A DNA stretch of 32,000 nucleotides from Gemmata obscuriglobus (GTDB taxonomy: Bacteria > Planctomycetota > Planctomycetia > Gemmatales > Gemmataceae), in contig NZ_CP042911.1 in the NCBI RefSeq assembly GCF_008065095.1, positions 1,410,001 to 1,442,000 of the forward strand, written 5' to 3'. A program made the position numbers and the translations under genes. Under the pieces are notes generated by a model. That model ran no database searches. It had not been told where the DNA came from and saw only the letters and a program-made list of their open reading frames with translations. Each line of letters starts with the position of its first letter. Positions within the stretch are counted from its first letter, which is position 1. Of the stretch, positions 4,013 to 20,018 are shown piece by piece.

Positions 4013-4042
4013 CTTTGCTCCCGTCATTCTTTCGGTGCGCGC

Positions 4043-4798
4043 ATGAAACTCACTCCCCGGCAGCAGCGGTTCGTGCAGGAGTACCTCGTGGACCGGAGCC
4101 CGTCGGGGGCGGCGGTGCGGGCCGGGTACAGCACGCACTCGGCGCGGAAGATCGGCGAGCAGAACCTGAAGAAGCCGCCGATCGCCGCGGCCATCGCGGC
4201 GGCCACCGGGTGCGCCAAGCCGCCCGAGCGGCCCGCCCTCACCCCGGACGCCGTGCTCCAGCGGCTGTGGCTCATCGCCACCGCCGACCCGAACGAGATC
4301 ATCGAGCACCGCCGCACCTGCTGCCGGTACTGCCACGGGGACGGGCACCGCTACCACTGGACCCAGAGCGAGCTGGACGCCGCCCGCGCCGCCCACGCCG
4401 AAGGCAAGAAGGCCGACGAGCCGTTCGACCCGCTGGGCGGCCCCGGGTACGACCCGCGCCGCCCCCCGGCCCCCAAGTGCCCCGAGTGCTTCGGGGACGG
4501 GGTGGGGGCGGTGTACGTGAAGGACACGCGGCGACTGTCCCCGGGCGCCCGCGCGCTGTGGGCCGGGGTGAAGCAGACCAAGGACGGGGTGGAAGCCCGG
4601 CTCAACGACCAGCAGGCCGCCCTGGTCACCGTGGCCCGGCACCTGGGTATGTTCACGGACGCCGGCGCGGCCAAAGACACGGACCTGCCCGACCTGTCGG
4701 GGATCACCGCCGATGAACTCGACCGACTGCTCGCTGCCCTGCGGCCCCTCTTCGCTCCGCCGCCTGTGGGGGGCGGCGGAACGGGCGGGCGCCCGTGA
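4043..4798 (+). CDS. terS: Terminase small subunit (Terminase_2/P27-like)
   Basis: The N-terminus MKLTPRQQRFVQEYLVDRSPSGAAVRAGYSTHSARKIGEQNLKKPPIAAAI is the canonical small-terminase HTH signature. The gene sits directly upstream of, and overlaps, the large subunit. Confidence 0.85.
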   Translation: MKLTPRQQRFVQEYLVDRSPSGAAVRAGYSTHSARKIGEQNLKKPPIAAAIAAATGCAKPPERPALTPDAVLQRLWLIATADPNEIIEHRRTCCRYCHGDGHRYHWTQSELDAARAAHAEGKKADEPFDPLGGPGYDPRRPPAPKCPECFGDGVGAVYVKDTRRLSPGARALWAGVKQTKDGVEARLNDQQAALVTVARHLGMFTDAGAAKDTDLPDLSGITADELDRLLAALRPLFAPPPVGGGGTGGRP

Positions 4799-6248
4799 CC
4801 TCACCCCGGGCGCGTGGAACGCCCGGTTCCTGCCGCACTACTTCGGCCGGTTCCCGCCCGCGGACTTCCACGCCCTGTTCGACCGCGAGCTGCACAACCT
4901 GCACCTCACCCGCGGGGTGAAGCGGTCCGACATCGCCCCCCGGGGCGGGGCCAAAAGTACGTGGAAGACCCTGGCGTACCCGCTCCGGTGCGCCGCCGAG
5001 GGGTGGGAGCCGTACACCCTGATCCTGTCCGACTCCAGCGACCAGGCCGACCTGCACCTGCGCCACATCCGCAAGGAGCTGGAAGAGAACGAGGTGCTGG
5101 CCGCGGCGTACCCGGAGGCGACCGGGCCGGGGCCGGAGTGGAAGCAGTCGCGCATCCGGCTGCGGAACGGGTCGCTGGTGGAAGCTCTGGGGAGCGGCAA
5201 AAAGGTGCGCGGCCGGCGGAACCGGAGTGAGCGCCCGAGTTTGATCATTTTCGACGACATTCAGAGCAACGAGGACGTGACCAGTCCGGTCATGCGCCGC
5301 CGCGCGTGGGAGTGGGCGACGCGCGAGGTGATCCCGGCGGGGAACGAGCGAACCAACTTCCTGGCGGTGGGCAGCGCGCTGCACCGGGAAGCGGTGGCGG
5401 TGCGGCTGGGGCAGCTCCCGGGGTGGTCCGGGCGGGTCCACCGGGCGGTGCATGCGTGGCCGGAACGGGCCGATTTGTGGGCGGATTTCGAGCGGATCGC
5501 CTCGAACATGGCGGACGACGGGCGGGAGGCGACGGCGCGGGCGTTCTACGCCGAGCACCGCGCGGAGATGGACCGGGGCGGGGTGGTGTACTGGCCGGAC
5601 CGCTTCCCACTCGTTGACCTGATGCTGGTACGCGCGGCGGTGGGCGGCAGCGCCTTCGAGAGCGAGTACCAGGGCGTACCGGGCACGCTGGAGGGGGCCG
5701 AGTGGCCGCCCGAGTGCTTCGACCGGCCGGACCTGTGGTTCACGGACTGGCCGTCGGATTTGGTGGTGCGGCTGCAAAGCCTGGACCCGTCGAAGGGTGT
5801 GAGCGACAAGGCGGACTACCAGGCGCACGTGAAGCTGGGGCTGTCGCGGTTCGGGCTGCTGTACGTGGACGCGGAGCTGCGTCGGGAGCCGGGCTGGGTG
5901 GAGCGGGCGATCGACATCGCGGCGGAGTGGCGGCCGGTGGAACTGGTGGCGGAGGCGAACAACACGATGGGGCTGCTGCGGCCGGCGGCGGAGCGGGTGC
6001 TGCGGGAGCGGCGGGAGCAGGGGCGGGTGCTGTCGTTCGTGTACACGGAGAAGATCAACAGCGCGCCGAAGGCGATCCGCATCCGGGCGCTGAACGACTA
6101 CCTGCGCCGCGGTCAGATCCGGGTGCGCGGCACCCCGGGCGGTCGGGTGCTGGTGGAGCAGCTCCGGGACTGGCCCAACGGCGACCACGACGACGGCCCG
6201 GACGCGCTGGCCACCGCCGTGATCCGCTTGCAGGAACTGGTGGCGTAA
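4713..6248 (+). CDS. terL: Terminase large subunit (ATPase plus RNaseH-like nuclease)
   Basis: Walker A-like PRGGAKSTW and Walker B LIIFDDIQ. C-terminal nuclease pattern LQSLDPSKG..DKADYQA, ELVAEANN, KAIRIRAL, WPNGDHDDGPDALATAV. The start is taken as ATG 4713 (86-nt overlap with terS). No better in-frame ATG/GTG lies before the conserved FHALFDREL, so the start is uncertain. Confidence 0.85.
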   Translation: MNSTDCSLPCGPSSLRRLWGAAERAGARDLTPGAWNARFLPHYFGRFPPADFHALFDRELHNLHLTRGVKRSDIAPRGGAKSTWKTLAYPLRCAAEGWEPYTLILSDSSDQADLHLRHIRKELEENEVLAAAYPEATGPGPEWKQSRIRLRNGSLVEALGSGKKVRGRRNRSERPSLIIFDDIQSNEDVTSPVMRRRAWEWATREVIPAGNERTNFLAVGSALHREAVAVRLGQLPGWSGRVHRAVHAWPERADLWADFERIASNMADDGREATARAFYAEHRAEMDRGGVVYWPDRFPLVDLMLVRAAVGGSAFESEYQGVPGTLEGAEWPPECFDRPDLWFTDWPSDLVVRLQSLDPSKGVSDKADYQAHVKLGLSRFGLLYVDAELRREPGWVERAIDIAAEWRPVELVAEANNTMGLLRPAAERVLRERREQGRVLSFVYTEKINSAPKAIRIRALNDYLRRGQIRVRGTPGGRVLVEQLRDWPNGDHDDGPDALATAVIRLQELVA

Positions 6249-6377
6249 GTGGGGGCGCATCACCTCGGGAACGAACGCGCCCGCCCTGGAACCGCGCACA
6301 CGCGCCGTGTACGTTTGCAGGAACACTTGAAGACGCGAGCCGCCGGACCGACCCGGAACGACTGGAGCGGAACTGCC

Positions 6378-7100: not shown

Positions 7101-7105
7101 CACCC

Positions 7106-7816
7106 ATGACCGACCCCGACGAAGCCGCGCTGCTCCGCGCCATCGCCGCCGTGCCGGGCGATGTGACGGGGCGGCTCGCGTATGCGGACTGGCTCGACGA
7201 GCACGGGCGCGGGATCGAAGCCGCCTGGGTGCGCGACGAGGGCTTACCCCCGCCCGGCGTGACCGAACTTGCTGGCGACGGTGAAGGCGCTGGTGCGGGT
7301 GACGGCGGCGGCGATGGTGACAACGACCGGGGTCACAACGACGACCTCAACAACGGCCACGGCGATGGCACCGGCAGCGGTGAAAGCCGCGGCGGTTTCG
7401 GCTACTGCGACATCGACGGCACCGGTAGCGGCTTGGAAAGCGGTTACGCCCGCGGCTATGGGAACGGCGGTGGCTACGGCCACGGCGGCTACGGAACCCC
7501 AAACAAGCCCCACATTACACACGAGGAGGTTCCCATGCCGTTGCCGGGTGCGTATGTGATCGTGCGTTCGCGTGACCAGGGTTGCGTGTGCGGCGAGTAC
7601 CGGGGTCACCACGGGCGGGAGGTGGTGCTGGGGAAGGCGCGTCAGATTTATTCGTGGGAGGGCGGTCGGCTGACGCTGTTCGACTTCGCGGTGGTGCCGG
7701 GTGCGTGCCGGCTGTCGCGGGAGGCGCCGGGGGAGGTGGTGATGCTGGAGGCGTGCGGGATCATCCCCACCACGCCCGAGGTCGAGGCGTTCCTGCGGGC
7801 ACACCCGGGCGAGTGA
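7106..7816 (+). CDS. TIGR02996-type N-domain / variable core / conserved C-domain protein (paralog P2)
   Basis: ATG 7106 lies 5 nt after the P1 stop. Same N- and C-terminal blocks. The core (GDGEGAGAGDGGGDGDNDRGH..GFGYCDI.GTGSGLE.GYARGYGNGGGYGHGGYG) is nearly identical to P5. Confidence 0.85.
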   Translation: MTDPDEAALLRAIAAVPGDVTGRLAYADWLDEHGRGIEAAWVRDEGLPPPGVTELAGDGEGAGAGDGGGDGDNDRGHNDDLNNGHGDGTGSGESRGGFGYCDIDGTGSGLESGYARGYGNGGGYGHGGYGTPNKPHITHEEVPMPLPGAYVIVRSRDQGCVCGEYRGHHGREVVLGKARQIYSWEGGRLTLFDFAVVPGACRLSREAPGEVVMLEACGIIPTTPEVEAFLRAHPGE

Positions 7817-7820
7817 GCCC

Positions 7821-8576
7821 ATGACCGACCCCGAAGAGGCCGCCCTCCTTCGCGCCATCGGCGCGGCACCCGGCGAGTTCACGGCGCGGCTCGCGTACGC
7901 GGACTGGCTCGACGAGCACGGCCGCGGCCTCGAAGCCGCCTGGGTGCGCGACGAGGGCACGGCCCCGCCCCGGGTGACCGAACTCGGTGGCAGCGGCCAC
8001 GGCGAGGGCAAAGGCAACGGCGACGGCCAGAGCGACGGCTGCGACTACAGCGACGACGACGACCGTCACGGCGACGACGGCAGCCACGGGGACGGCTACG
8101 GCTACGGCTACGGCGGTCGCAGCTACAGCCACGGCGTCTACGGCCACGGCTACAGCAGCGGCCGCGGCGACGGCCACGGCTACGGCAGCGGCTTAGGCGG
8201 CCGCGGAATCGGCGTAGGCGAAGGGGACGGCGGCCGCGCCGGCCGCATCGCCACACGAAAGCTTCAACACCTGATCCCCCACGAGGAAGTTCCCATGCCG
8301 GTTTCGGGTGCGTATGTGATTGTGCGTTCGCGGGACCAGGGTTGCGTGTGCGGGGAGTACCGGGGCCACCACGGGCGCGAGGTGGTGCTGGGGAAGGCGC
8401 GTCAGATCTTCTCCTGGGAGGGCGGTCGGCTGACGCTATTCGACTTCGCGGTGGTGCCGGGTGCGTGCCGGCTGTCGCGTGAGGCGCCGGGCGAGGTGGT
8501 GATGCTGGAGGCGTGCGGGATCATCCCGACCACGGCTGCGGTGGAAGCGTTCCTGCGGGCGCACCCAGGGGAGTAG
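7821..8576 (+). CDS. TIGR02996-type N-domain / variable core / conserved C-domain protein (paralog P3)
   Basis: ATG 7821 lies 4 nt after the P2 stop. Conserved ends with a different, longer core (GHGEGKGNGDGQSDGCDYSDDDDRHGDDGSHGDGYGYGYGG...). Shares LQHLIPH with P4. Confidence 0.85.
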   Translation: MTDPEEAALLRAIGAAPGEFTARLAYADWLDEHGRGLEAAWVRDEGTAPPRVTELGGSGHGEGKGNGDGQSDGCDYSDDDDRHGDDGSHGDGYGYGYGGRSYSHGVYGHGYSSGRGDGHGYGSGLGGRGIGVGEGDGGRAGRIATRKLQHLIPHEEVPMPVSGAYVIVRSRDQGCVCGEYRGHHGREVVLGKARQIFSWEGGRLTLFDFAVVPGACRLSREAPGEVVMLEACGIIPTTAAVEAFLRAHPGE

Positions 8577-8580
8577 CACC

Positions 8581-8785
8581 ATGACCGACCCCGAAGAGGC
8601 CGCGCTGCTGGCCGCCATCATCGCCGCGCCCGCCGACGACACCCCGCGCCTCGTGTACGCCGACTGGCTCCAGGAGCAGGCCGCGGGATCGAAGCCGCCT
8701 GGGTGCGCGACGAGGGCACGGCCCCGCCCCGGGTGACCGACCTTGCCGGCGACGGTGAAGGCGCTGGCGCGGGCGAAGGGGGAGG
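8581..8785 (+). pseudogene. Chimeric, frameshifted remnant of a TIGR02996-family paralog
   Basis: 8581-8683 is near-identical to the 5' end of the 14657 gene (MTDPEEAALLAAIIAAPADDTPRLVYADWLQEQAA). At GGCCGC it switches, one base short, to the P1-P5-type sequence GGGATCGAAGCCGCCTGGGTGCGCGACGAGGGC...GGCGACGGTGAAGGCGCTGGCGCGGGCGAAGG. The original frame stops at about codon 46, and similarity is lost after ~8785. Confidence 0.75.
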
Positions 8786-8855
8786 GGTGTGTGGCACTGC
8801 GGCGGAAACCGCCCGCCGCCGGTACGGGAGCGCCGGGCGCTCCGGTCGCGCGGGC

Positions 8856-8883
8856 TTGACACGGGAGCGAATTTTACTATGCG
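8856..8883 (+). promoter_or_regulatory. Candidate sigma70-like promoter for the CHAT cassette (TTGACA, 16 nt, TATGCG)
   Basis: This is the only AT-richer patch between the paralog remnant and the first cassette gene. The -35 is perfect and the -10 is weak. Planctomycete promoter rules are poorly known. Confidence 0.2.
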
Positions 8884-8966
8884 GCGGAACCTGACTGCAT
8901 CCGCGGGTGGCGTGCGCTACGCTTGGTACGTTCGCCGTTCACTCCCAACCGTGGCTCGGGGGCAGA

Positions 8967-9302
8967 ATGTCCGACACCGCGCGCGTTGCCGAGCCGCTCA
9001 CGCTGGAACTCGACTTGCCCGGCCCGGCCGACGGGCGGTACGTGGCCCGCGCGGGAGTGCCGTTCGCGTTACGCGTGAGGGGCGACCTCGGTTCCCCGGT
9101 GCCCGCGGAGGTGCTGGTCCTCGGGGCCGGGGTGCGGGCGACGCCGGTGGGCCGCGACGTGCGGCTCCCCGCCGACGCCACCTTCCTTGTGTGCTGCTCG
9201 GCCGCGGGGCCGGCGCACCTACACGTCGAGCTGCTCGTCGGCGGGGAAGAGATGGCCTCCGCCGCGGCGTACCTGTCGGTGCTCCCCGCGCCGGTCGTAT
9301 GA
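8967..9302 (+). CDS. Small beta-rich (Ig/beta-sandwich-like) hypothetical protein, first gene of the CHAT cassette
   Basis: ATG 8967 in frame with track ORF 8907..9302. Alternating beta-strand-like segments (LTLELDL, FALRVRG, AEVLVLGAGVRATP, FLVCCSAAGPAHLHVELLVGG, AAAYLSVLP) resemble the C-terminal domain of the 9957 gene. Confidence 0.55.
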   Translation: MSDTARVAEPLTLELDLPGPADGRYVARAGVPFALRVRGDLGSPVPAEVLVLGAGVRATPVGRDVRLPADATFLVCCSAAGPAHLHVELLVGGEEMASAAAYLSVLPAPVV

Positions 9303-9405
9303 GCGTGCATTCGGCCGACCCTGTCTGGACGCCGGTTGCCAGTTCGACTATCACAAGGGTTTCCAGCCGACCTCTCCGACCGTGCCCTTGTCCGGAGTGA
9401 TCGCA

Positions 9406-9960
9406 ATGCCCATTCGCTCATCGACGGCCCGCGCGCTCCAGCTCGGTGCGGTGATCGCCACCGCGGAGCAGGTGCAGCAAGGTCTGCTTCACGGCCCCGA
9501 CATCACGCTCGGCAGCCGCGCGCGAGCCGCGGCGGGAATCGAAGAGGTCCGCACCCGGCTCCTCGCCGCGGCCCGCGACTTGGACCGGCGGGTGGGTGAG
9601 CGGCTCCGGTCGAGCGTGTCGTGGTGGGTCCAGTTCGTCCTGCTCGTCTTCTTGGTCGCGCTCGGGGTCGGGTTCGTGTTCGCGGCCGTGCGCCTCATGA
9701 CCAGTGAGGACCCGTCGAACTTAACGTACCTGTTCACCGTCGGCCCGCCGCCGCTGGTGGTCTTCCTTCTGAACCAGTTGCGGCGCATGGAGGTCGATCG
9801 GATCACCGTGAGCCTGCTGGCGGCCCGGTTCGTGCCCCGGATCGAGGCGGCCGGGTCGATCGCCGAACTGGAGGCGATCGCGCGCGAAATGTCCGACTCC
9901 TTGCGGCTCCTCACGAACGCGCCGCGCCCGGCCGCCCCGGGGGCAGGACCCCGAACATGA
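9406..9960 (+). CDS. Membrane protein with two predicted TM helices (hypothetical)
   Basis: ATG 9406 is preceded by GGAG (about 9 nt). Hydrophobic stretches WWVQFVLLVFLVALGVGFVFAAV and YLFTVGPPPLVVFLLNQL. The stop overlaps the next start (ATGA at 9957-9960). Confidence 0.6.
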   Translation: MPIRSSTARALQLGAVIATAEQVQQGLLHGPDITLGSRARAAAGIEEVRTRLLAAARDLDRRVGERLRSSVSWWVQFVLLVFLVALGVGFVFAAVRLMTSEDPSNLTYLFTVGPPPLVVFLLNQLRRMEVDRITVSLLAARFVPRIEAAGSIAELEAIAREMSDSLRLLTNAPRPAAPGAGPRT

Positions 9961-11375
9961 GCAAGAAGATCAAGGAGCTGGAGCTGAACAGCCTCCGCAA
10001 GACCTTCCAGGGCGTGCGGGACTTCGTGCTGCTGGAGCCGCTGAAGCTGGACTCCGCGGCCGACTACACGCTTCGCAAGAGCCTTCGCGAGAAGAAGGTT
10101 CGCGTGAAGATGGTCAAGAACAGCTTCGTGCGGAAGGTGTTCAGCGAGAACGGCATGACGGTGGAGACGGGCTCCGGCCCGACCCTTCTGTGCTGGGGGG
10201 CCGACAGCGCGAAGTCCCTCGGGACCGCGGTGGAGGCGGCTCTCAAGCTGATCCGCCCGGACCTGAAGGTGCCCGAGAAGGTCAAAGAGAAGGTCGGCAT
10301 CGCCGACGGCGAGACCATGACCCTGGCGCAGCTCGCCAAGGTGCCGACCAAGCAAGAGGCGATCGGCGAAGTCCTCGCCGCGGTGCTCGCGCCGGGCGCC
10401 GCGCTGGCCGGGGCGCTCACGGCGCCGGGTGCGGACCTCGCGGGCATCCTCAAGGCGGTCCAGGGCGTGCGGGCGCAGAGGACCCCCGCGGCCGTCGCGG
10501 TGGGGGCGACGGATTCGGCGTGGGCGAGTGAACCCGCCCCTTCTGTGCCGGGTCCGTTCGTGCGGCCGGCGGCCGGCGCGGGCGCCCGGTTGCCCTTGCC
10601 TTCTGTGCCGCGGCCGCCGAACAATGGTGTAGAGCCAGGGGCCGCTCCGGTCCGCTCTTCGGTTCGGAACGCGGAACCGGACCCGGAGGTCGCGCTGCGA
10701 GCGCTGGAGCGGTGGCTGCCGCTGTTGCACGGGATCGGCGCCGGACGGGCGCCGGAGCGCGTGCGCACGATCTGGGGCGAGCACGTCCGGAACGAGCTGT
10801 TCCGCAGCCCCCCGGCGGTCGCCTGGCTCGATCAGTGCTTGGCCGCCCGGCCGTCATTTGCACCTCAGAGGGCCGCGGCACTCGAGGCGCTGCGGCGGGT
10901 GCGGGCCGAGGTGCGGGACGAGTTGACCGGGTTGGGCGAACAACTCGCCCCTCAAGCGGAGGGAACATCGCCCCCCAACGGGGGAAGCGAAATGGATCAG
11001 TTCATCCTGGTTCTGGAGATCGGCGCGCGGGACGGCGGACCCTTGACCGTGGGGCACGAAGCGACCCTGCGGGCGGTGGTCGCGAAAGCTGACGTGGCGA
11101 ACACGGAAGATCACTACAACGGCCACTACAACTGGGTGCCGGCGGGGCCCGGGGAGGTGGTGGCGGTGCGGGTGTTCGCGACCGGCAGCCGGGTGCTCCC
11201 GGCCGAGCGGTACCTCTCGACGCCCCCGCAACCGGGCCAGTCCGTCGAGTTCACGTTCCGGCCCCGGGCCGCCGGCCGGCAGTACCTGCACCTGGCCCTC
11301 GTGGACCGGCACGACTCCGACGTGTACACGGCGTCCCAATACTTCACCGTCGAGCCGGCCGCCGCTGTCGGCTGA
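9957..11375 (+). CDS. Ribosomal protein uL10-like N-domain fused to a Pro/Ala-rich linker, a helical segment and a C-terminal beta-sandwich-like domain
   Basis: Residues 1-~170 follow uL10 by eye: VLLEPLKLDSAADYTLRKSLREKKVRVKMVKNSFVRKVF, GPTLLCWG, LAKVPTKQEAIGEVLAAVLAPGAALAGAL. No rplK/A/L or rpoB neighbours. The C-terminal 128 aa (from MDQFILVLEIG, nt 10992) are beta-rich. Confidence 0.7.
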   Translation: MSKKIKELELNSLRKTFQGVRDFVLLEPLKLDSAADYTLRKSLREKKVRVKMVKNSFVRKVFSENGMTVETGSGPTLLCWGADSAKSLGTAVEAALKLIRPDLKVPEKVKEKVGIADGETMTLAQLAKVPTKQEAIGEVLAAVLAPGAALAGALTAPGADLAGILKAVQGVRAQRTPAAVAVGATDSAWASEPAPSVPGPFVRPAAGAGARLPLPSVPRPPNNGVEPGAAPVRSSVRNAEPDPEVALRALERWLPLLHGIGAGRAPERVRTIWGEHVRNELFRSPPAVAWLDQCLAARPSFAPQRAAALEALRRVRAEVRDELTGLGEQLAPQAEGTSPPNGGSEMDQFILVLEIGARDGGPLTVGHEATLRAVVAKADVANTEDHYNGHYNWVPAGPGEVVAVRVFATGSRVLPAERYLSTPPQPGQSVEFTFRPRAAGRQYLHLALVDRHDSDVYTASQYFTVEPAAAVG

Positions 11376-11441
11376 GCCCGGCGCCGCGCGCCGCGAACGC
11401 GCGGCCTCGGCGCCCGCCACCCTTTCGGTCACGCCACCGTC

Positions 11442-12962
11442 ATGCTCCGCGCCCCCACGACCGCCGTTCTGTCGCCCCCCCCCCAGGAGCGGTCGCTCCG
11501 GGTGGATCTGTTCTACCGCGATCCGAGCGCCCCGAGCGCCTACGTGGTGCTCAACGTGCCGCTGGACCCGACGTACGGGACGGCGCACCGCGAGTACCTG
11601 GACCGGCACCGGTACGACACCTCGGACGGGAGCCCACCAACGGCCCTGTTCGAGGGCGTCGTCGACGGCTCGTTTGCGACCTTCCGGGACCTGATCCGCG
11701 CGGCACTGGACGCGCACGTGGAGGCCGCCCACCGCCGCGACCCGGCGCTGTACGCGCTGTACGATCCGGCCCTGCCGAGGGCCGGGGACCGGGAGCTGGG
11801 CGCGTTCTTGCGCCCGCTCGCGGTTCACGGGTACGAGATGTACCGGAACCTGTTCGAGCGGCTCGTCGGGGACCTGCGGGCGCCGAGCGACCTCCCGCCC
11901 GAGGAGCGGCCCGACTGGGACCAGACCGAGGCGCACGCGCTGGTCCGCGAGTACCTGGCGAGCGCCTCTCCCAAAGTGGTGTTCAAGGTGCCGCAAGAGG
12001 ACCGGGCGGACCCCGTCAACCGGCCGCACCTGCCGCCGCCGGCGGACCACTGGACCGAACCGTTCCCGTGGCGGCTCCTGTTCGACCGGCACCCCGACAA
12101 GTTGCCCGCCGCGCCCGACCTGTTCGGCCGGCGCCCCGACGAACTGCCCTCCGCGCCCGAGCTGGCGGCGGCGTGCTGGGGCCTGAAGTACCAGCTCGAG
12201 ACCGCCTTCAAGTGGACCCAGGGGCAGTCGACCCTGCGGGCGTTCGAGAATCGGCCGCCCCGGATCGTCGCGGCCACGTGCCCGTCGGCCGATCCGGCCG
12301 ATCGGCACCGCGATCGGGGCCACCCGTTCCAGCGGCCTGGGGTGGACACGACCCACCACGACCAACGGGACGACTTCCGCGCCGCCCTCCGCCACGTCGA
12401 CGCGGACGCGGTATCGTTCTTCGGCCACGCGGAGGTCGCACGGGCGAACGTGCAGACCGGCAGCTCGATCGAGTTCCGGCCCCCCCGGTCCGGCCCCGCG
12501 GACTGGGAGCAACTGACGGCCGCCGACATGGACGGGGCGAGGATCCCGAAGTACCAGCGCAAGCCGGTGCTGGTGTTCCTCAACGGGTGCGGGACCGGTC
12601 CGCTGGACGGGTTAGGACCGACGACCGTCTTCGGGCAGTTCACCAACAATGGGCCGGTCCGGGGGCACCGGGTGCGGTGCGTGGCGGTCGTCCACGAGGC
12701 GCCCATCACATTCGGGCTCGAACTGGGCCAGGAGTTCTGGAAGCAGGTGCTCCCCGCCGCACCGGGGGCGGGCGGGGAACCGGTGGGGGCGGCTCTGCTG
12801 GCCGCGCGGCAGCACATGGTCCGGGCGTACAACAACCCGCTCGGGGTGCTGTACGCGCTGTTCGGCGACGGCCTGTTGCGGTACCACCCGGGCGCGCCGT
12901 CACACGGGGCCATCGGGTCCGGCGGCCCGCCGGCGGGGCCGAGCGCCACGGCCGGCGCGTAG
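11442..12962 (+). CDS. CHAT-domain caspase-like cysteine protease
   Basis: His/Cys dyad context VSFFGHAEV ... (about 55 aa) ... KPVLVFLNGCGTGP, and the C-terminal NPLGVLYALFGDGLLRY typical of CHAT domain ends. Good third-position GC bias. Confidence 0.7.
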   Translation: MLRAPTTAVLSPPPQERSLRVDLFYRDPSAPSAYVVLNVPLDPTYGTAHREYLDRHRYDTSDGSPPTALFEGVVDGSFATFRDLIRAALDAHVEAAHRRDPALYALYDPALPRAGDRELGAFLRPLAVHGYEMYRNLFERLVGDLRAPSDLPPEERPDWDQTEAHALVREYLASASPKVVFKVPQEDRADPVNRPHLPPPADHWTEPFPWRLLFDRHPDKLPAAPDLFGRRPDELPSAPELAAACWGLKYQLETAFKWTQGQSTLRAFENRPPRIVAATCPSADPADRHRDRGHPFQRPGVDTTHHDQRDDFRAALRHVDADAVSFFGHAEVARANVQTGSSIEFRPPRSGPADWEQLTAADMDGARIPKYQRKPVLVFLNGCGTGPLDGLGPTTVFGQFTNNGPVRGHRVRCVAVVHEAPITFGLELGQEFWKQVLPAAPGAGGEPVGAALLAARQHMVRAYNNPLGVLYALFGDGLLRYHPGAPSHGAIGSGGPPAGPSATAGA

Positions 12963-13135
12963 CACCTCTGCACCACTGATCCGTGGGACACATCGTAGGG
13001 TCTTGGGCTGCCGGATCGCTCCTCATTTACGGGTACGACGCTGGTACACGAGACGGTGCTCGCCCGCGCGCGTGATCCCGGGCTCGTCGAGCGGCGCGCC
13101 GCCGGCACGTGGCGCCTGGAACCATCGGGGCGAGT

Positions 13136-13939
13136 ATGACCACCGACGAGGCCGCGCTGCTTCGCGCCATCGCCGCGCACCCGGGCGAGGTCACCGCGCG
13201 GCTCGCGTATGCGGACTGGCTCGACGAGCACGGCCGCGGGATCGAAGCCGCCTGGGTACGCGACGAGGGCACGGCCCCGTGGGTGACCGAACTCGGCGGC
13301 GGCGATGGTGACGGTGGCTGCGACGCCGACGGCACCGGCACCGGCGATGACCACGGCAGCGGTAACGGCGATGGTGACGGCGACGGCTACGGTGACAGCA
13401 ACGGCGACGGCTACGGCGACGGTACGAACTGCGGCGACGGCGCCGGCCGCGGTGACGGCCGCGGCTACGGCGCCGGCGGCGGGGGCAGCGAAATCCACGA
13501 CTACAGCATCCGCGGCGGCAACCACGGCTACGGCCGCGGCTACGGTTACTGCTACGGCGACAGCGACGGCGACGGCGACGGCAACGGTCAAGGCCACGGC
13601 TACAACCCCATCGCCGCGCACAATCTGCAACACCTGATCCCCCACCAGGAGGTTCACATGCCGGAGTCGGGTGCGTACGTGATCGTGCGTTCGCGGGATC
13701 AGGGTTGCGTGTGCGGTGAGTACCGGGGGCACCACGGCCGTGAGGTGGTGCTGGGGAAGGCGCGCCAGATCTACTCGTGGGAGGGCGGTCGGCTGACGCT
13801 GTTCGACTTCGCGGTGGTGCCGGGTCCGTGCCGGCTGTCGCGTGAGGCGCCCGGGGAGGTGGTGATGCTGGAGGCGTGCGGGATCATCCCGACCACGCCC
13901 GAGGTCGAGGCGTTCCTGCGGGCGCACCCGGGCGAGTGA
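13136..13939 (+). CDS. TIGR02996-type N-domain / variable core / conserved C-domain protein (paralog P4)
   Basis: ATG 13136 (MTTDEAALLRAIAAHPGEVTARLAYADWLDEHGRGIEAAWVRDEG). Longest core (GDGDGGCDADGTGTGDDHGSGNGDGDGDGYGDSNGDGYGDG...). Conserved C-terminal 93 aa. Confidence 0.85.
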   Translation: MTTDEAALLRAIAAHPGEVTARLAYADWLDEHGRGIEAAWVRDEGTAPWVTELGGGDGDGGCDADGTGTGDDHGSGNGDGDGDGYGDSNGDGYGDGTNCGDGAGRGDGRGYGAGGGGSEIHDYSIRGGNHGYGRGYGYCYGDSDGDGDGNGQGHGYNPIAAHNLQHLIPHQEVHMPESGAYVIVRSRDQGCVCGEYRGHHGREVVLGKARQIYSWEGGRLTLFDFAVVPGPCRLSREAPGEVVMLEACGIIPTTPEVEAFLRAHPGE

Positions 13940-13944
13940 CACCC

Positions 13945-14652: not shown

Positions 14653-14656
14653 CACC

Positions 14657-15442: not shown

Positions 15443-15481
15443 CACGCCCCTGATACATGAGTCCACCCGCGGTGTCGCTCT

Positions 15482-16153: not shown

Positions 16154-16168
16154 TGCGAGGAGTCGCCC

Positions 16169-17194: not shown

Positions 17195-19993
17195 ATGTAC
17201 CCGGCGATCACCCTGACGGCCCTCGACGTTCCCGCCCCGCTCCCCGAGCCGGACGCGCACGCGCACCTCCGCACCGAGCTGGCCGCCAAGGTGCGGCGGC
17301 TCGAAGAAACCCTCCTGTCGCTCGACAACCTGCTGGCCCCGCAGGACTGGCTGGACGCCGGCGACGGGTTCCCCGGCCCCGGCTGCTGGCGGGTGAACCG
17401 CCCGGCCCAGCGGACCCAGGACCGCACCCGCGCGCCCCTCTCGTACCTGAACGAGGAGGAGTGGCGCCAGCACGTCGCCCTGGCCCGCGACCTGTGTACC
17501 CGCAACCACCTGGCGCTCGGGTTCCGCGACCACGTCTCCAACTTCATCGGCCCCGTTCAGATCAGCTTCGTGCCCCGCGCCCGCGGCGCCGCACGCGACA
17601 CCGCCCCGGGGCTGGTGTCGGCGTGTACCCGCGCGTGGGCCGAGTGGTGCGAGTTCGCCGAGTGGGGGCAGGGTGAAGAGGACCGCGAAGAGGAGTGCCG
17701 GCGCCGGCTCATCGTGGAGGGCGAAACCACCCTGCGGTTCTTCGTGGGCGACGAGGCGTCGGACGGGCTGCCGTACGCGCGCCACGTGGAGCCGGAACTG
17801 ATCCGCACCCCGCCCGGGGGCAGCACCGCGGACCGGTGCGGGTGGGGCGTGGTGACGGCCGAGGGGGACGACGAGCGCGAGGAGGGGCTGTGGGTGTGCG
17901 ACCCGGCGGACGTGTCGCGCGGGCGCGAGGTGCCGGCGTCCGAGTACGTGCGGGTGAAAGGGAACGTGGACCGCACGGTGAAGCGGGGCCTGTCGGACTT
18001 CCTGCCGGTGGGCGAGCAGTTGCGGAAGGTGCTGGGGCTGCTGGACAACATGGCCCACGTGGCCCGCGTCCAGGCGGCGATCGCGTGGTGGGAACAGTAC
18101 CCGGCGGCGACGGCCGAGCAGGTGGCGGCGCAGGTGCGGCTGGGGGCGGACTACCACCGGCCCAAGGGGGCTCCGGGTTCGGCCGGGGCGGGCACGGAGG
18201 TGACCGGGTACGAGGCCGGGACGGTGGTGCGGACGGAGGGCGGGCGGGAGGTGAAGCCGGGGCCGGTGTCGAGCGGGACGGCCGGGTTCGAGGCGGTGGA
18301 GCGGATGGTGCTGCGCGGGGTCGGGTTCCGGTGGGGGTGCCCGAGCTACTTCAGCGGCGACGGTGACGCCAGCTTCGCAAGCGTGCTGGTGACGGGGTCG
18401 CCGTTCGTGCGTCTGACGCAGGCGCGCCAGGAGCGGGTGAAGGCGTTCGCGTGCCGTGTGGCGTCGCGGGTGGTGGAGTTCTGTGAGCGTTCGGGCCGGC
18501 TCCCGCGTGGGGTGTCGAAGTGGGTGCGGGCGGTGGGCACGTGCGGGCCGGTAGTGATCGCGGACGAGGAGAAGAAGGCGCGGACGTTCCTGGCCTTGTA
18601 CCAGCAGAACTGCGCGGACCCGCTGGAGTTCGTGCGCTCGACGGGCGCGGACCCGGAGCAGGTGGCGGCGAACATCCGGGCGTGGAAGGCGCGGTTCGAG
18701 CCCCCGGGGCCGGGCGGCGGCGGGGGCGCCGGGGGGACGCCGGGCGGCGGCCCGAGCCCGTCGCCGCCGGGCAGCGCCGGCGGGGACGGGAGCAGCCCGA
18801 ACGCGCCGGTGGGGGAGGGGCGCAAGCCGTGCGCGTGCCACGGGCTCGCGCGGGAGAGCACGGGCGGCACAGACGCGCCAGCGAACGGGGAAACAAAAGA
18901 CTCGCTCGGTCGGCGGATTTGCTATTCGGATGGAGAGCGCGTTGCATGCTCTGGCGATGATGCTGCGGATGGGGAACCGGAAGCCGGCGCGAAGGACGGT
19001 TTCGACGCGGCGGCGGTGGGGAAGCAGTTGGTGGATGAGAAGCTGGTGCCCGATGAGAACGAGCTGAACGAGATCCGCGCGAACGGCATCCCGAAGGGCG
19101 GGAAGCACGAGGACAAGGTTGAGAAGAGGTGGGAGCAGGTTATTGCCCGGGTGCTGGGGTCGGGGTGGGTGGTCAGCACGTCGTCGAACGCTGCGGCCGA
19201 CGTGACCGGTAGTCTAGAGATCGACGGTAAGCCGTGTCGCGTTGTGCTCGACGGGAAGTTCAGCGTCGCCGTCGGGGCGGCGTACGATCAACTCCCGGAC
19301 GCGGTGCAGAACAAGTTAAAGGACTCGGCCCAGCACGGCGAGAACACGGTCGTCGCCTACGTCGTGGCGTACCACACGCCGGCAACGGGCAACGGCGGTG
19401 TAGCGGAAGACGGGGTATACTTGCGCATCGGCGCGATGCCGCAGGTGATTAACGTGTCCGACAGCGTGGTGAAGCGGGCGCGGGAGTTCGGCCCGTTTCG
19501 GATTCTGAACAAGGACCAGTACGCGGCCTTACGCGAAGGCAAGCCGGAAGCCGTGCAGGCGCTGCGCGACAACCTGACTCAGCGGCTCACGGCGATCGAT
19601 CTCAAGCGGTACAAGGCCCAAGAGCAACTTGACGACGTGGCGCAAACGGGTAAGGCCGCGGATAAGCTGAGTGAGATGGTTGAGGCGTCGCAAAAGCACG
19701 CCGTGGATCCGAAGGCCGTCGGGAAGCAAACGGCCGCCGCGCTGAGCGGGGCCAACGCGGCGGTCCGGAATGCCCACGTGGCGGCGGTGGTGGCGGGTGC
19801 CCCGGCGGCCGAGCAGGCGGGCGCGGCGGCGGCGGTGCTGAGCGGGCTGACGGACGAGGGGCAGAAGGCGGCCGTGCTGACGGGCGGGTTGGCCGGGCTG
19901 AACCCGGGGAGCCTGAGCGCCGAGCAACTGGCCGTGTTGGAGCGGCTGCTCGCCGCCGCCCGGGGCACCGCTCCGCCGAACCCGCCGGGCTGA
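17195..19993 (+). CDS. Phage portal protein (about the first 500 aa) fused through a Gly/Pro linker to a ~400-aa C-terminal extension
   Basis: Portal-like blocks ARDLCTRNHLALGFRDHVSNFIGPV, NVDRTVKRGLSDFLPV, AHVARVQAAIAWW, GFRWGCPSYFSGD. Linker PPGPGGGGGAGGTPGGGPSPSPPGSAGGDG (~18700-18800). The extension has visibly lower GC at 18890-19700. Confidence 0.7.
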   Translation: MYPAITLTALDVPAPLPEPDAHAHLRTELAAKVRRLEETLLSLDNLLAPQDWLDAGDGFPGPGCWRVNRPAQRTQDRTRAPLSYLNEEEWRQHVALARDLCTRNHLALGFRDHVSNFIGPVQISFVPRARGAARDTAPGLVSACTRAWAEWCEFAEWGQGEEDREEECRRRLIVEGETTLRFFVGDEASDGLPYARHVEPELIRTPPGGSTADRCGWGVVTAEGDDEREEGLWVCDPADVSRGREVPASEYVRVKGNVDRTVKRGLSDFLPVGEQLRKVLGLLDNMAHVARVQAAIAWWEQYPAATAEQVAAQVRLGADYHRPKGAPGSAGAGTEVTGYEAGTVVRTEGGREVKPGPVSSGTAGFEAVERMVLRGVGFRWGCPSYFSGDGDASFASVLVTGSPFVRLTQARQERVKAFACRVASRVVEFCERSGRLPRGVSKWVRAVGTCGPVVIADEEKKARTFLALYQQNCADPLEFVRSTGADPEQVAANIRAWKARFEPPGPGGGGGAGGTPGGGPSPSPPGSAGGDGSSPNAPVGEGRKPCACHGLARESTGGTDAPANGETKDSLGRRICYSDGERVACSGDDAADGEPEAGAKDGFDAAAVGKQLVDEKLVPDENELNEIRANGIPKGGKHEDKVEKRWEQVIARVLGSGWVVSTSSNAAADVTGSLEIDGKPCRVVLDGKFSVAVGAAYDQLPDAVQNKLKDSAQHGENTVVAYVVAYHTPATGNGGVAEDGVYLRIGAMPQVINVSDSVVKRAREFGPFRILNKDQYAALREGKPEAVQALRDNLTQRLTAIDLKRYKAQEQLDDVAQTGKAADKLSEMVEASQKHAVDPKAVGKQTAAALSGANAAVRNAHVAAVVAGAPAAEQAGAAAAVLSGLTDEGQKAAVLTGGLAGLNPGSLSAEQLAVLERLLAAARGTAPPNPPG

Positions 19994-19995: not shown

Positions 19996-20018
19996 ATACA
20001 CGAACGAAGGGGCCAGCA

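What the first reader, a model, noticed from the sequence alone, without database searches (positions are those of the whole stretch)
9957..11375. Ribosomal stalk protein uL10 homologue outside any ribosomal operon, fused to a long linker and a beta-rich domain
Residues 1-~170 track bacterial uL10 along its whole length by eye. KIKELELNSLRKTF / VLLEPLKLDSAADYTLRKSLREKKVRVKMVKNSFVRKVF corresponds to the conserved ..lt..lR..lre.g...rVvKNtl. block. GPTLLCWG corresponds to GPt.l.f. LAKVPTKQEAIGEVLAAVLAPGAALAGALTAPGADLAGILKAV corresponds to the L12-binding stalk helix region la.LPs.eel.a.l.g.l.ap.

There is no rplK/rplA/rplL/rpoB context. The domain is followed by a ~170-aa Pro/Ala-rich and helical segment and a 128-aa beta-rich domain.

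A uL10 paralog next to a protease could act as a stalk mimic, for example a decoy, a sensor of a ribosome-targeting factor, or a way to capture bL12 or translational GTPases. Virus-encoded ribosomal proteins are known in general. I do not recall a uL10 fusion in a protease cassette.
Basis: partly seen in the sequence, partly recalled or inferred. Interest (0 to 1): 0.75.

Follow-up and report, generated by a model that had tools for sequence, protein, structure and literature searches.

The report
Prophage-cargo chimeric copy of ribosomal uL10
Gemmata obscuriglobus carries, besides its normal rplJ gene, a second copy whose first 168 codons are fused to a 300-residue orphan tail ending in an Ig-like domain, inside the cargo region of a phage-derived element; the gene is real and its uL10 part is still under selection, but it is known from one strain only and its function is untested.

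Summary
ORF 9957-11375 (472 aa) begins with a complete uL10 module: Pfam PF00466 above threshold, NCBIfam uL10 covering profile 3-164/168, and an AF2/Foldseek uL10 fold that includes the bL12-binding helix. It is not the housekeeping gene. G. obscuriglobus has a canonical tuf-secE-nusG-rplK-rplA-rplJ(183 aa)-rplL-rpoBC locus elsewhere.

The window copy is a lineage-specific partial duplicate of that rplJ. It covers codons 1-168 exactly from the ATG (504 nt, 90.7% identity, no indels) and is sister to the host gene (bootstrap 93-100). It evolves under relaxed but real purifying selection (omega about 0.1-0.3, against about 0.02 for the canonical copy) and keeps 81 of 82 conserved positions. It has lost ribosomal-protein codon bias.

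After codon 168 come a disordered Pro/Ala linker, a helical segment and a CARDB-like beta-sandwich. None of these has a detectable homologue.

The gene lies in a unique 4.35-kb cassette inside about 9.5 kb of cargo between terL and portal of a phage-derived element. The "protease" neighbour is only weakly CHAT-like (E = 0.058).

Most likely it is an alternative stalk-base protein that binds uL10's normal partners. That is inferred, not shown. It is a new variant of the known class of mobile-element-encoded ribosomal proteins, seen in a single strain, and of moderate interest.

The parts
9957..10460 (+). uL10-derived module (codons 1-168 of the host's 183-codon rplJ): rRNA/uL11-binding core plus the bL12-binding helix alpha8
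   Evidence: 504 nt, 90.7% identical with no gaps to canonical rplJ L031 6982-7485. Homology starts at the ATG and stops at codon 168. Profile hits. Fold. 81 of 82 conserved columns kept.
10461..10682 (+). Junction and Pro/Ala/Gly-rich linker (about aa 169-242), predicted disordered
   Evidence: pLDDT below 50 for aa 174-243. Weak codon periodicity: GC3 0.70-0.85, GC2 0.6-0.78. No homology to the rplJ 3' end or to anything else.
10683..10946 (+). Helical segment (aa 243-330), orphan
   Evidence: AF2 helices 243-261, 267-283, 285-296 and 299-330, pLDDT 45-73. Clear coding periodicity over aa 231-300. The only family hit is a non-significant DinB_2 match (E = 0.06-0.55).
10998..11354 (+). C-terminal Ig-like (CARDB/FnIII-like) beta-sandwich (aa 348-466)
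   Evidence: pLDDT 70-85 from what is effectively a single sequence. Foldseek hits to CARDB 2kl6/3idu, SoxZ and FnIII at E about 4e-4 to 2e-3. phmmer finds only weak hits to repeated Ig-type domains, P0252 and P0254. Codon-position GC 0.74/0.47/0.91.
10992..10994 (+). In-frame ATG (Met346) preceded by GGGGGAAG; possible independent start for the beta domain
   Evidence: Read directly from the sequence. It is the only Met in aa 172-472.
9397..9960 (+). Upstream ORF with two hydrophobic (putative transmembrane) segments. Start is GTG 9397 or ATG 9406. Its TGA stop overlaps the uL10 ATG (ATGA).
   Evidence: GC3 0.89. No family hit.
11442..12962 (+). Downstream 506-aa ORF, weakly CHAT-like (motifs FFGHAE and VLVFLNGCGTG)
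   Evidence: Pfam CHAT is the only hit: E = 0.058, 13.3 bits against a gathering score of 24, over the His/Cys region. No other hits. AF2 pLDDT 33.
8907..9302 (+). Small 131-aa ORF, first gene of the cassette, faintly similar to the C-terminal beta domain
   Evidence: Pairwise BLASTP E = 2e-4, 29% identity over 68 aa. Not recovered in a database-sized search.
8786..13137 (.). Unique 4.35-kb four-gene cassette embedded in a tandem array of TIGR02996/DUF6948 paralogs
   Evidence: Similarity to the paralog array ends at about 8785 and resumes at about 13137-13138. Nothing inside 8900-13000 matches elsewhere in the window.
8577..8785 (+). Truncated, frameshifted TIGR02996 paralog fragment marking the left edge of the cassette
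   Evidence: blastn against the other copies, plus the three-frame translation.
4572..6248 (+). Large terminase (context: left border of the cargo block)
   Evidence: phrog_38, E = 1.3e-76. 68% identical to the terL of IMG/VR relative L032.
17195..19993 (+). Portal protein (context: right border of the cargo block)
   Evidence: Pfam Phage_portal_2, E = 2.6e-13. phrog_21, E = 2e-107. In L032 the portal lies 1.4 kb after terL, against about 11 kb here.

Best explanation
What it is (shown): a lineage-specific chimeric paralog of ribosomal protein uL10. The first 168 of the 183 codons of G. obscuriglobus' own rplJ were copied, exactly from the start codon and without the leader or the rplL partner, into a four-gene cassette. 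That cassette lies in the cargo region between terL and portal of a phage-derived element. The copied part is joined in frame to an orphan tail: a disordered linker, a helical segment and an Ig-like beta-sandwich.

How it most likely works (inferred): the uL10 module still does what uL10 does. Its N-terminal core binds 23S rRNA helices 42-44 next to uL11, and helix alpha8 binds bL12 dimers. When expressed, probably at low or conditional levels, the protein would replace canonical uL10 on a fraction of 50S subunits, or form an off-ribosome uL10-bL12 complex. That would hang a ~300-residue tail with a binding-type Ig domain from the distal end of the stalk, next to the GTPase-factor landing site. 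The tail would then either tether a partner to ribosomes or sterically modulate factor recruitment. Candidate partners are the co-translated membrane protein upstream and the CHAT-like protein downstream.
For: Origin:
- A canonical rplJ exists in the normal operon.
- The paralog is sister to it in NJ trees, bootstrap 93-100.
- 504 nt, 90.7% identity, no gaps, boundaries at the ATG and at codon 168.

Constraint on the uL10 module:
- Pairwise dN/dS = 0.073 (Sd 37, Nd 10).
- Paralog branch by parsimony: 8 nonsynonymous, 9 synonymous, omega about 0.30, binomial against neutrality p = 0.012.
- Omega falls to about 0.1 if the GC3 rise from about 0.78 to 0.946 happened on this branch.
- No indel in 504 nt.
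- 51 of 52 invariant and 81 of 82 >=90%-conserved family columns are kept; the one change is L99I.

Domain-preserving breakpoint:
- Helix alpha8 is retained up to its last turn and is modelled as a continuous helix 132-174.
- The model superposes on the T. maritima L10-L12NTD complex.

The tail looks like real protein:
- In-frame coding periodicity.
- A beta-sandwich predicted at pLDDT 70-85 without an alignment.
- An extension drifting neutrally for the same time would stay stop-free in only 3-29% of simulations, before counting indels.

Operon-like embedding:
- ATGA overlap with the upstream ORF.

Precedent:
- Phage S21 and L7/L12 incorporate into ribosomes, phage bL12 domains occur inside larger polypeptides, and a phage L9 has a non-homologous C-terminal replacement (Mizuno et al., bioRxiv 10.1101/174177).
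Against: - There is no direct evidence of expression, ribosome association or bL12 binding.
- The gene is a singleton. No other genome, phage, IMG/VR contig or metagenome contig showed the fusion, the tail or the neighbour. Selection on the tail therefore cannot be measured.
- The conserved E-E-K that follows alpha8 in housekeeping uL10 is lost at the junction.
- Paralog omega is several-fold to about 18-fold higher than on the canonical branch (Fisher p = 0.005). That fits relaxation on the way to decay as well as a new function.
- Loss of ribosomal-protein codon bias argues against bulk incorporation into ribosomes.
- The linker lacks a clear coding signature, and an internal ATG with a Shine-Dalgarno-like motif precedes the beta domain. 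The fusion could therefore be a read-through into a formerly separate gene.
- No capsid or tail genes were found after the portal, so the element may be a decaying remnant.
Confidence: 0.4

Rival explanations
1. Evolutionary accident. A partial rplJ duplicate landed in mobile-element cargo and lost its stop, so it now reads through into adjacent sequence that is partly a former separate gene. The fusion as such has no selected function and the gene is slowly decaying.
For: - It is a singleton in one strain, and the tail has no homologue among 1.84 billion representatives.
- Paralog-branch omega is raised well above the canonical branch.
- The linker has no clear coding periodicity.
- Met346 with an upstream GGGGGAAG suggests the beta domain was once its own small ORF.
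- A 70-codon open bridge arises by chance about 26% of the time at this GC content.
- The cassette sits beside a truncated, frameshifted paralog fragment, and the element lacks detectable capsid or tail genes.
Against: - Omega is significantly below 1 on the paralog branch (p = 0.012), and lower still once the GC3 shift is allowed for.
- No indel in 504 nt, and 81 of 82 conserved positions are kept.
- The breakpoint falls neatly at the end of the functional helix.
- The start codon is precisely coupled to the upstream ORF.
- A 304-codon tail staying open under neutral drift is unlikely: 3-29% from substitutions alone.
Confidence: 0.3
2. Decoy or guard in a conflict system. The uL10 module is bait for a factor that attacks or docks on the ribosomal stalk, for example a phage or toxin protein. 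Engagement is passed through the tail to the neighbouring CHAT-like protease and/or the membrane protein as effectors.
For: - It lies in mobile-element cargo, flanked by a putative 2-TM protein and a protein with caspase/CHAT-like His and Cys motifs.
- It sits in a tight same-strand cassette with an ATGA overlap.
- The bait-relevant surface is conserved.
- Stalk-directed immune effectors exist, for example Cami1, seen among the fold hits as 8phj (the functional description is from my own knowledge of Mogila et al. 2023).
Against: - CHAT assignment is sub-threshold (E = 0.058).
- No PADLOC model hits any of the eight cassette and flanking window proteins scanned.
- No NTPase or sensor module was found in the cassette.
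- The cassette was not found in any other genome or virus, whereas real defence systems usually recur.
Confidence: 0.12
3. Off-ribosome regulator. The protein titrates free bL12, or, as a uL10-bL12 complex, binds the host rplJL mRNA leader. Either would down-tune host stalk synthesis on behalf of the element.
For: - The RNA-binding core and alpha8 are intact.
- The uL10(bL12)4 complex is the known autogenous repressor of rplJL mRNA (review PMC10931766).
- The paralog itself lacks the conserved upstream leader that G. obscuriglobus and G. algarum share, so it would escape that control.
Against: - It does not explain the 300-aa tail.
- No Rfam L10 leader was detectable in either locus, so the regulatory target in Gemmata is unknown.
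- There are no expression data.
Confidence: 0.08
4. It is simply the organism's housekeeping uL10 with an unusual extension, or a mis-assembly at a repeat.
For: - NCBI names it '50S ribosomal protein L10'.
- The first genome scan and the protein search did not show a second G. obscuriglobus copy.
Against: - A canonical 183-aa uL10 (P0244, WP_010040254) lies between rplA and rplL on the same chromosome.
- Independent short-read contigs break exactly where a k=31 graph must branch between the two copies, and they span the chimeric junction with 100% identity.
Confidence: 0.01

Closest known systems
Housekeeping bacterial uL10 (rplJ; PF00466 / NF000955), specifically G. obscuriglobus WP_010040254
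   Same: 159 of 168 residues are identical. It has the same fold, including the bL12-binding helix alpha8, and all but one of the conserved positions.
   Different: - Not in the rplKAJL-rpoBC operon, and no leader.
- The last 15 residues are replaced by a 304-residue tail.
- GC3 is 0.95 against 0.79.
- Omega is several-fold to about 18-fold higher.
Virus-encoded ribosomal proteins (Mizuno et al., bioRxiv 10.1101/174177 / Nat Commun 2019), especially phage bL12 domains inside larger polypeptides and the phage L9 with a replaced C-terminus
   Same: It is a host-derived ribosomal protein gene carried by a phage-type element. It is under purifying selection, it is a solvent-exposed stalk component, and it is fused to unrelated sequence.
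   Different: - uL10 is not among the proteins named in that paper's text (its Table S2 was not checked).
- The element here is integrated and possibly defective.
- The donor is the current host itself, at 95% protein identity.
- Only a single occurrence is known.
phrog_31116 (PHROGs v4, 'unknown function')
   Same: It is a uL10-type family among phage and prophage proteins. The window protein and canonical Gemmata uL10 match it weakly.
   Different: The profile is only 168 positions long, so it has no tail. The match to the window protein is weak (3e-4). tblastn of the window protein against 50,697 deposited phages found nothing.
Alternative ribosomal-protein paralogs that swap into ribosomes (bL31B/YkgM, bL36B)
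   Same: A second gene copy that could occupy the same ribosomal site under particular conditions (review PMC10931766).
   Different: Those paralogs are old, widespread, Zur-regulated, lack zinc-binding motifs and carry no added domain. This one is young, strain-specific, chimeric and carried by a mobile element.
Archaeal/eukaryotic uL10 (P0), which naturally carries a C-terminal extension beyond the stalk helix
   Same: A uL10 core followed by extra C-terminal sequence projecting from the stalk (own knowledge; P0 chains appear among the fold hits, e.g. 4v8t_q and 5dc3_p0).
   Different: The P0 extension is conserved and ends in the factor-binding acidic tail it shares with P1/P2. Here the tail is an orphan linker, helices and an Ig-like domain, with no sequence relation to P0.

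Membership tests
uL10 / Ribosomal_L10 (PF00466, NF000955) | Profile match at or above the curated threshold | tested here: met
   Pfam gives 35.8 bits against a gathering score of 22.8. The NCBIfam equivalog gives 79.9 bits, just under its 85-bit cutoff, but with full-length coverage 3-164/168.
uL10 / Ribosomal_L10 (PF00466, NF000955) | uL10 fold with a C-terminal helix alpha8 that carries the bL12 dimers | tested here: met
   AF2 core pLDDT about 80-90 and helix 132-174. Foldseek hits to 1zav/1zax and 8fmw_AJ, E = 1e-7 to 5e-6, target TM 0.63-0.71.
uL10 / Ribosomal_L10 (PF00466, NF000955) | Family-conserved residues retained | tested here: met
   51 of 52 invariant and 81 of 82 >=90%-conserved columns are kept; the only change is L99I.
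uL10 / Ribosomal_L10 (PF00466, NF000955) | Encoded in the rplKAJL-rpoBC cluster as the single housekeeping copy | tested here: not met
   The canonical copy is at L031 6982-7533, between rplA and rplL. The window copy is flanked by non-ribosomal genes.
uL10 / Ribosomal_L10 (PF00466, NF000955) | Assembles on 23S rRNA H42-44 with uL11 and binds bL12 dimers | not testable with these tools
   This needs multimer modelling or biochemistry.
Virus- or mobile-element-encoded ribosomal proteins (Mizuno et al.) | Gene lies inside a viral genome or viral-type element | tested here: inconclusive
   It is flanked by a D5-type primase, terS, terL and portal, and lies in about 9.5 kb of cargo compared with IMG/VR relative L032. 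However, no capsid or tail genes were detected after the portal, no integrase was found, and there are no close phage relatives.
Virus- or mobile-element-encoded ribosomal proteins (Mizuno et al.) | Derived from a cellular ribosomal protein gene and kept under purifying selection | tested here: met
   Sister to host rplJ. Pairwise omega 0.07, branch omega about 0.1-0.3.
Virus- or mobile-element-encoded ribosomal proteins (Mizuno et al.) | Incorporated into host ribosomes | not testable with these tools
   Requires ribosome purification and mass spectrometry.
CHAT/caspase-type protease conflict cassette | Neighbour is a CHAT-domain peptidase (profile match, His-Cys dyad) | tested here: inconclusive
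   The only Pfam hit is CHAT at E = 0.058, 13.3 bits against a gathering score of 24, over the FFGHAE...NGCGTG region. The full-length scan found nothing. PDB phmmer found nothing. AF2 pLDDT is 33.
CHAT/caspase-type protease conflict cassette | Matches a catalogued defence system, or recurs as a conserved gene neighbourhood | tested here: not met
   There are no PADLOC hits for any of the eight cassette and flanking window proteins scanned. The neighbour has no relatives in IMG/VR or in metagenome contigs.

The most novel reading that the evidence does not exclude
A mobile element has domesticated its host's own uL10 to build 'specialised' ribosomes. The chimera seats itself at the stalk base with bL12 and uses its Ig-like tail to recruit the neighbouring CHAT-like enzyme or membrane protein to the GTPase-associated centre. 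This would give the element, or the lysogen, a switch on translation, for example superinfection exclusion or abortive infection through stalk cleavage, or membrane tethering of ribosomes in a bacterium with elaborate internal membranes.
Probability: 0.15. Interest if true: 0.8.

Novelty: new variant of a known kind. Interest (0 to 1): 0.45.

Why it matters
Ribosomal proteins carried by viruses and mobile elements are a recognised but poorly understood way of tampering with host translation. So far the stalk is represented only by bL12 domains.

A uL10 copy that keeps every partner-binding determinant and carries a large foreign tail would be a natural experiment in re-engineering the stalk base, the platform that recruits all translational GTPases. 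It is also a cleanly datable case of gene birth by partial duplication and fusion: the donor gene, both breakpoints, the age (dS about 0.37) and the codon-usage shift are all visible.

Two things limit its importance. It is known from a single strain, and no expression or binding data exist.

There is also a practical point. Public annotation calls both proteins '50S ribosomal protein L10'. That can mislead marker-gene and copy-number analyses, and the repeat breaks short-read assemblies inside rplJ.

Tried and rejected
1. 'Only rplJ copy, hence housekeeping'.
- I took this seriously after the genome scan and the N-domain protein search showed no second G. obscuriglobus uL10.
- It was rejected when cluster listing revealed P0244 hidden inside the G. 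algarum 90% cluster and the canonical locus was fetched.

2. Homologues of the tail.
- The word-index search with the full protein gave 3 hits, all through the uL10 part.
- Exhaustive phmmer of aa 240-472 against 1.84 billion representatives gave only three weak, repeat-driven hits to Ig-type repeat proteins.
- Caveat: the query's own protein did not appear as a hit, so it is represented there by another sequence. Stand-alone homologues would still have been seen.
- Pfam, PHROGs and PADLOC found nothing for the tail.

3. Relatives of the fusion, neighbour, terL or portal.
- Nothing in INPHARED phages, IMG/VR or metagenome contigs, except one distant element, L032, found through the portal.

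4. Neighbour structure.
- AF2 single-sequence model is useless, pLDDT 33, so no fold search was run on it.

5. Rfam.
- No L10 leader or other family at either locus.

6. Intra-window paralogy of the cassette.
- None found.
- The faint similarity between the small ORF and the beta domain did not survive a database-sized search.

7. Exact look-ups.
- P0001 and P0244 were 'not on record' in the contig index.
- I worked around this through uL1 (P0247) and the neighbour gene.

8. Literature.
- No paper mentions the accessions or the SRA runs, and no G. obscuriglobus expression data were found.

9. Promoter and terminator scan of the cassette.
- Uninformative: no sigma-70-like sites, as expected for this phylum.
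Full report
**1. The observation**

The window has about 72% G+C. ORF 9957-11375 on the + strand encodes 472 aa.

Several results identify the N-terminal part as uL10:
- Pfam Ribosomal_L10 matches aa 2-88 above threshold (E = 8.8e-9, 35.8 bits, gathering score 22.8).
- The NCBIfam uL10 equivalog NF000955 aligns aa 6-169 to profile positions 3-164 of 168. At E = 1.9e-22 and 79.9 bits it falls just under its 85-bit cutoff.
- phmmer against PDB sequences finds only uL10 chains. The Thermus alignment runs through aa 169, which covers the bL12-binding helix.

I predicted the structure with AlphaFold2, using an alignment of 26 Gemmataceae uL10 sequences (A1). The model shows:
- a confident uL10 core (pLDDT about 80-90);
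- one long helix at aa 132-174;
- a disordered stretch at aa 174-243;
- four helices at aa 243-330 (pLDDT 45-73);
- a beta-sandwich at aa 348-466, which reaches pLDDT 70-85 even though no homologues inform that part.

Foldseek against the PDB returns uL10 chains first, including the T. maritima L10-L12NTD complex 1zav/1zax (target TM 0.63-0.71). For the C-terminal domain it returns generic Ig-like sandwiches: CARDB 2kl6/3idu, SoxZ and FnIII (E about 4e-4 to 2e-3).

**2. Whose gene is it, and is it the only rplJ?**

The protein is identical to NCBI '50S ribosomal protein L10 [Gemmata obscuriglobus]' (WP_010047364 / AWM40335 / QEG26451) on a 9.03-Mb chromosome.

A genome-collection scan with the uL10 part found 27 Gemmataceae loci, all with a normal ~180-aa gene. 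In G. algarum and Gemmata sp. IIL30 that gene lies in nusG-rplK-rplA-rplJ-rplL-rpoB. Neither that scan nor a protein search showed a second G. obscuriglobus copy; the 120 best of 374 hits were all 148-207 aa. For a while the 'only copy, hence housekeeping' reading was open.

Listing the 90%-identity clusters resolved it. G. obscuriglobus has a canonical 183-aa uL10 (P0244, WP_010040254 / AWM36655) hidden in the G. algarum cluster, and its accession is adjacent to uL1. Through uL1 I fetched the locus from CP025958.1 (L031). Its gene order is tuf-secE-nusG-rplK-rplA-rplJ(6982-7533)-rplL-rpoB-rpoC. The window gene is a paralog.

**3. Origin and age**

- Extent: window 9957-10460 aligns to L031 6982-7485 without gaps (504 nt, 47 mismatches, 90.7%).
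- Boundaries: similarity starts exactly at the ATG. The 34-nt upstream leader stretch shared by G. obscuriglobus and G. algarum is absent. Similarity stops at codon 168, 15 codons before the canonical stop.
- Protein: the two proteins differ at 9 of 168 positions.
- Phylogeny: NJ trees of protein, codon positions 1+2 and all sites place the paralog as sister to the host's own rplJ, inside the G. obscuriglobus/G. algarum clade (bootstrap 93, 100 and 98).
- Divergence: Nei-Gojobori gives dS = 0.37 and dN = 0.027 (omega 0.073) between the copies, compared with dS = 0.77 between the two species' canonical genes.

This is a partial duplicate of the lineage's own gene, made after the split from G. 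algarum. It is not a foreign uL10.

**4. Is the uL10 module still constrained?**

With G. algarum as outgroup, parsimony puts 8 nonsynonymous and 9 synonymous changes on the paralog branch, and 1 and 20 on the canonical branch. The paralog-branch omega of about 0.30 is below neutrality (binomial p = 0.012), but it is about 18 times that of the canonical branch (Fisher p = 0.005).

The synonymous count for the paralog is probably an underestimate:
- Its GC3 is 0.946. The canonical rplJ is at 0.79 (0.76 over the whole gene), and tuf, nusG, rplK, rplA and rplL are at 0.73-0.85.
- 18 of the 20 changes assigned to the canonical branch are G/C to A/T at sites where the paralog merely agrees with G. 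algarum.
- If the ancestor had housekeeping codon usage, about 27 synonymous changes belong to the paralog branch, and omega is about 0.1. This correction is my inference.

Other signs of constraint:
- The 504 nt contain no indel.
- The paralog keeps 51 of 52 invariant and 81 of 82 >=90%-conserved family columns. The exception is L99I.
- Its other changes (K68T, A87S, T113V, I120T, V140L, E160D, I168V) fall in variable columns or are conservative.

The conserved E-E-K that follows the helix is lost at the junction.

Conclusion: the module has been under purifying selection since duplication, relaxed compared with the essential copy. It has also lost the codon bias of highly expressed genes and now matches its neighbours (GC3 0.86-0.96). 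That argues against bulk expression.

**5. The tail**

Coding periodicity continues in frame. It is strongest at aa 231-300 and over the beta domain (codon-position GC 0.74/0.47/0.91). It is weak over the Pro/Ala linker at aa 171-230.

Searches for homologues gave almost nothing:
- Exhaustive phmmer of aa 240-472 against 1.84 billion representative proteins gave three weak hits.
- Two of them (P0252, P0254) match the beta domain through the 'P-G-x-S-V-E-F-T-F-x-P-x-A-A-G'-type strand pattern of repeated Ig-like domains. The third (P0253) is a repeat protein matching the helical segment.
- Pfam, NCBIfam, PHROGs and PADLOC give nothing significant.
- BFVD viral structures give only weak Fn3/Ig-type matches.

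The tail is an orphan with a plausible Ig-like fold.

Two caveats apply. The only Met in the tail (M346, ATG 10992) sits at the start of the beta domain, behind GGGGGAAG, so this domain may once have been, or may still also be, a separate small ORF. And a 70-codon open bridge arises by chance about 26% of the time at this composition. On the other side, if the whole 304-codon tail had drifted neutrally for 0.07-0.22 substitutions per site, it would remain stop-free in only 29-3% of simulations, even ignoring indels.

**6. The DNA is real**

- Logan short-read contigs of G. obscuriglobus runs end exactly 177 nt into canonical rplJ (L028, L029).
- Contigs from other runs (L033, L034; 20 or more samples by the tool's count) start at window 10334 and are 100% identical to window 10334-13228. 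They span the junction at 10460, the whole tail and the neighbour gene.
- Both end points are exactly where a k=31 de Bruijn graph must branch, given the 55-nt and 48-nt stretches that are identical between the two copies. That Logan uses k=31 is my own knowledge.

**7. Context**

Gene content of the window, in order:
- a D5-type primase/helicase (2-1732; Pfam D5_N/DUF5906, phrog_864);
- an HTH protein;
- small terminase (3884-4798);
- large terminase (4572-6248; phrog_38, E = 1e-76);
- much further on, a lambda-family portal (17195-19993; phrog_21, E = 2e-107).

A distant relative in IMG/VR (L032) has HTH-terS-terL, then the portal after only 1.4 kb. The window therefore carries about 9.5 kb of cargo between terL and portal.

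That cargo is a tandem array of TIGR02996-Gly-rich-DUF6948 paralogs. It is interrupted by a unique 4.35-kb cassette (8786-13137). The left edge of the cassette is a truncated, frameshifted paralog fragment (8577-8785).

The cassette holds four same-strand genes:
- a 131-aa ORF;
- an ORF with two hydrophobic segments, whose TGA overlaps the uL10 ATG (ATGA);
- the uL10 chimera;
- a 506-aa ORF.

The 506-aa ORF has caspase/CHAT-like motifs (FFGHAE, VLVFLNGCGTG, and a C-terminal '...LGVLYALFGD'). Its only profile support is a sub-threshold Pfam CHAT hit (E = 0.058). PADLOC, NCBIfam, PHROGs and PDB find nothing, and the AF2 model is unusable.

No capsid or tail genes were detected after the portal, and no integrase was seen. 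Ordinary host genes follow from about 24.3 kb: a GNAT acetyltransferase, tRNA-Arg, a response regulator and a bacteriophytochrome kinase. The element may be a remnant.

**8. How it most likely works**

Shown: a host-derived uL10 module with all partner-binding determinants, under selection, joined to a flexible linker and a binding-type domain, in an operon-like cassette within mobile-element cargo.

Inferred: it still binds 23S rRNA H42-44/uL11 and bL12 dimers, so it can seat itself at the stalk base of some ribosomes, or form an off-ribosome uL10-bL12 complex. Because the C-terminal end of alpha8 points away from the ribosome body, the tail would project beside the factor-binding site. There it could tether a partner or hinder factor access. 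I put this at about 0.4.

Rivals:
- An unselected read-through chimera in slow decay (about 0.3).
- A bait for a stalk-targeting factor coupled to the CHAT-like neighbour (about 0.12).
- A bL12 sponge or rplJL-leader repressor mimic (about 0.08; uL10(bL12)4 is the known autogenous repressor, PMC10931766).
- Housekeeping gene or assembly artefact: excluded.

**9. Comparison with what is known**

Mizuno et al. (bioRxiv 10.1101/174177) report 15 virus-encoded ribosomal proteins. Those named in the text are S21, L7/L12, L9, S30AE, L31, L33, S6, S9 and S15. They show that phage S21 and L7/L12 enter E. coli ribosomes, that phage bL12 domains often sit inside polypeptides of up to 724 aa, and that one phage L9 has a non-homologous C-terminal replacement. 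uL10 appears there only as a stalk component.

PHROGs does contain a small, unannotated uL10-type family, phrog_31116. E. coli RplJ hits it at 3.9e-31, and the window protein at 3e-4. A (pro)phage uL10 is therefore not entirely unprecedented.

The new features are the chimeric architecture (uL10, linker, helices, Ig-like domain), the very recent origin from the current host's own gene, and the location in terL-portal cargo. I classify it as a new variant of a known kind.

**10. Verdict**

- Observation: confirmed.
- Interpretation: partly supported. Paralog and fusion are confirmed. The protease cassette and the stalk-mimic function are unproven.
- Interest: moderate (0.45). It is a clean, datable gene-birth event touching a central part of the ribosome, but it is a single-strain singleton with no functional data.

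Noticed in passing
window 6249-8576 and 13109-15442: A tandem array of at least five paralogs. Each has an N-terminal TIGR02996 domain, a hypervariable Gly/Asp/Tyr-rich middle and a nearly identical C-terminal DUF6948. A sixth ORF (14657-15442) has only the TIGR02996-like N-terminus. They match phrog_18306 at 9e-132. The pattern of a variable middle with a conserved C-terminus suggests rapid diversification or gene conversion.
   Followed up: partly
window 8577-8785: A truncated, frameshifted copy of the same paralog family, exactly at the left boundary of the unique uL10 cassette. It suggests the cassette was inserted into, or replaced most of, one array member.
   Followed up: partly
window 6248-17195 versus L032 8592-10001: terL and portal are about 11 kb apart here but 1.4 kb apart in the only detectable relative (IMG/VR UViG_2600255093_000008; terL 68% and portal 42% identical). 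This terL-portal junction is a cargo hotspot.
   Followed up: partly
window 19994-24150: No capsid, protease or tail family was detected downstream of the portal, and the portal ORF has a ~330-aa C-terminal part with no PHROG hit. The segment 22.0-24.2 kb drops to 53-58% GC and holds three ORFs with no family hits. It could be a separate foreign insertion or the decayed end of the element.
   Followed up: partly
window 25218-25293: tRNA-Arg (CCT) lies just beyond the element and a GNAT gene. It could be an integration site, but no integrase or direct repeats were looked for.
   Followed up: no
L028 and L029 (ends), L033 and L034 (starts): Short-read assemblies of G. obscuriglobus break inside rplJ at positions predicted exactly by the 55-nt and 48-nt stretches that are identical between the two copies. 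The duplicated marker gene fragments assemblies and could distort single-copy-marker completeness or contamination estimates.
   Followed up: yes
PHROGs phrog_31116: This family is annotated 'unknown function' but is a full-length uL10 family (E. coli RplJ 3.9e-31 over 8-164/168). Either some (pro)phages carry uL10, or host rplJ was swept into prophage predictions.
   Followed up: partly
window 10992 (Met346): An in-frame ATG with an upstream GGGGGAAG lies at the start of the Ig-like domain, so the beta domain might also be made as a separate 127-aa protein. The small ORF 8907-9302 at the head of the cassette is of similar size and faintly similar (pairwise E = 2e-4).
   Followed up: partly
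P0003 (ENA contig, 1,116 bp): A 322-aa predicted protein joins the first ~94 residues of a Gemmataceae uL10 (80% identical) to a prepilin peptidase (PF01478/PF06750). On so short a contig this is probably a chimeric assembly, but it is another apparent uL10 fusion.
   Followed up: no
L031 6948-6981 versus L001 5967-6000: A 34-nt stretch immediately upstream of canonical rplJ is identical between G. obscuriglobus and G. algarum while the rest of the spacer diverges. No Rfam L10 leader matches. It may be a planctomycete-specific regulatory element for rplJL.
   Followed up: no
window 25768-26403 and 28170-30668 (-): Host genes beyond the element: a response regulator and a bacteriophytochrome histidine kinase (PAS_2-GAF-PHY-HisKA-HATPase). 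They are ordinary and unrelated to the finding.
   Followed up: no
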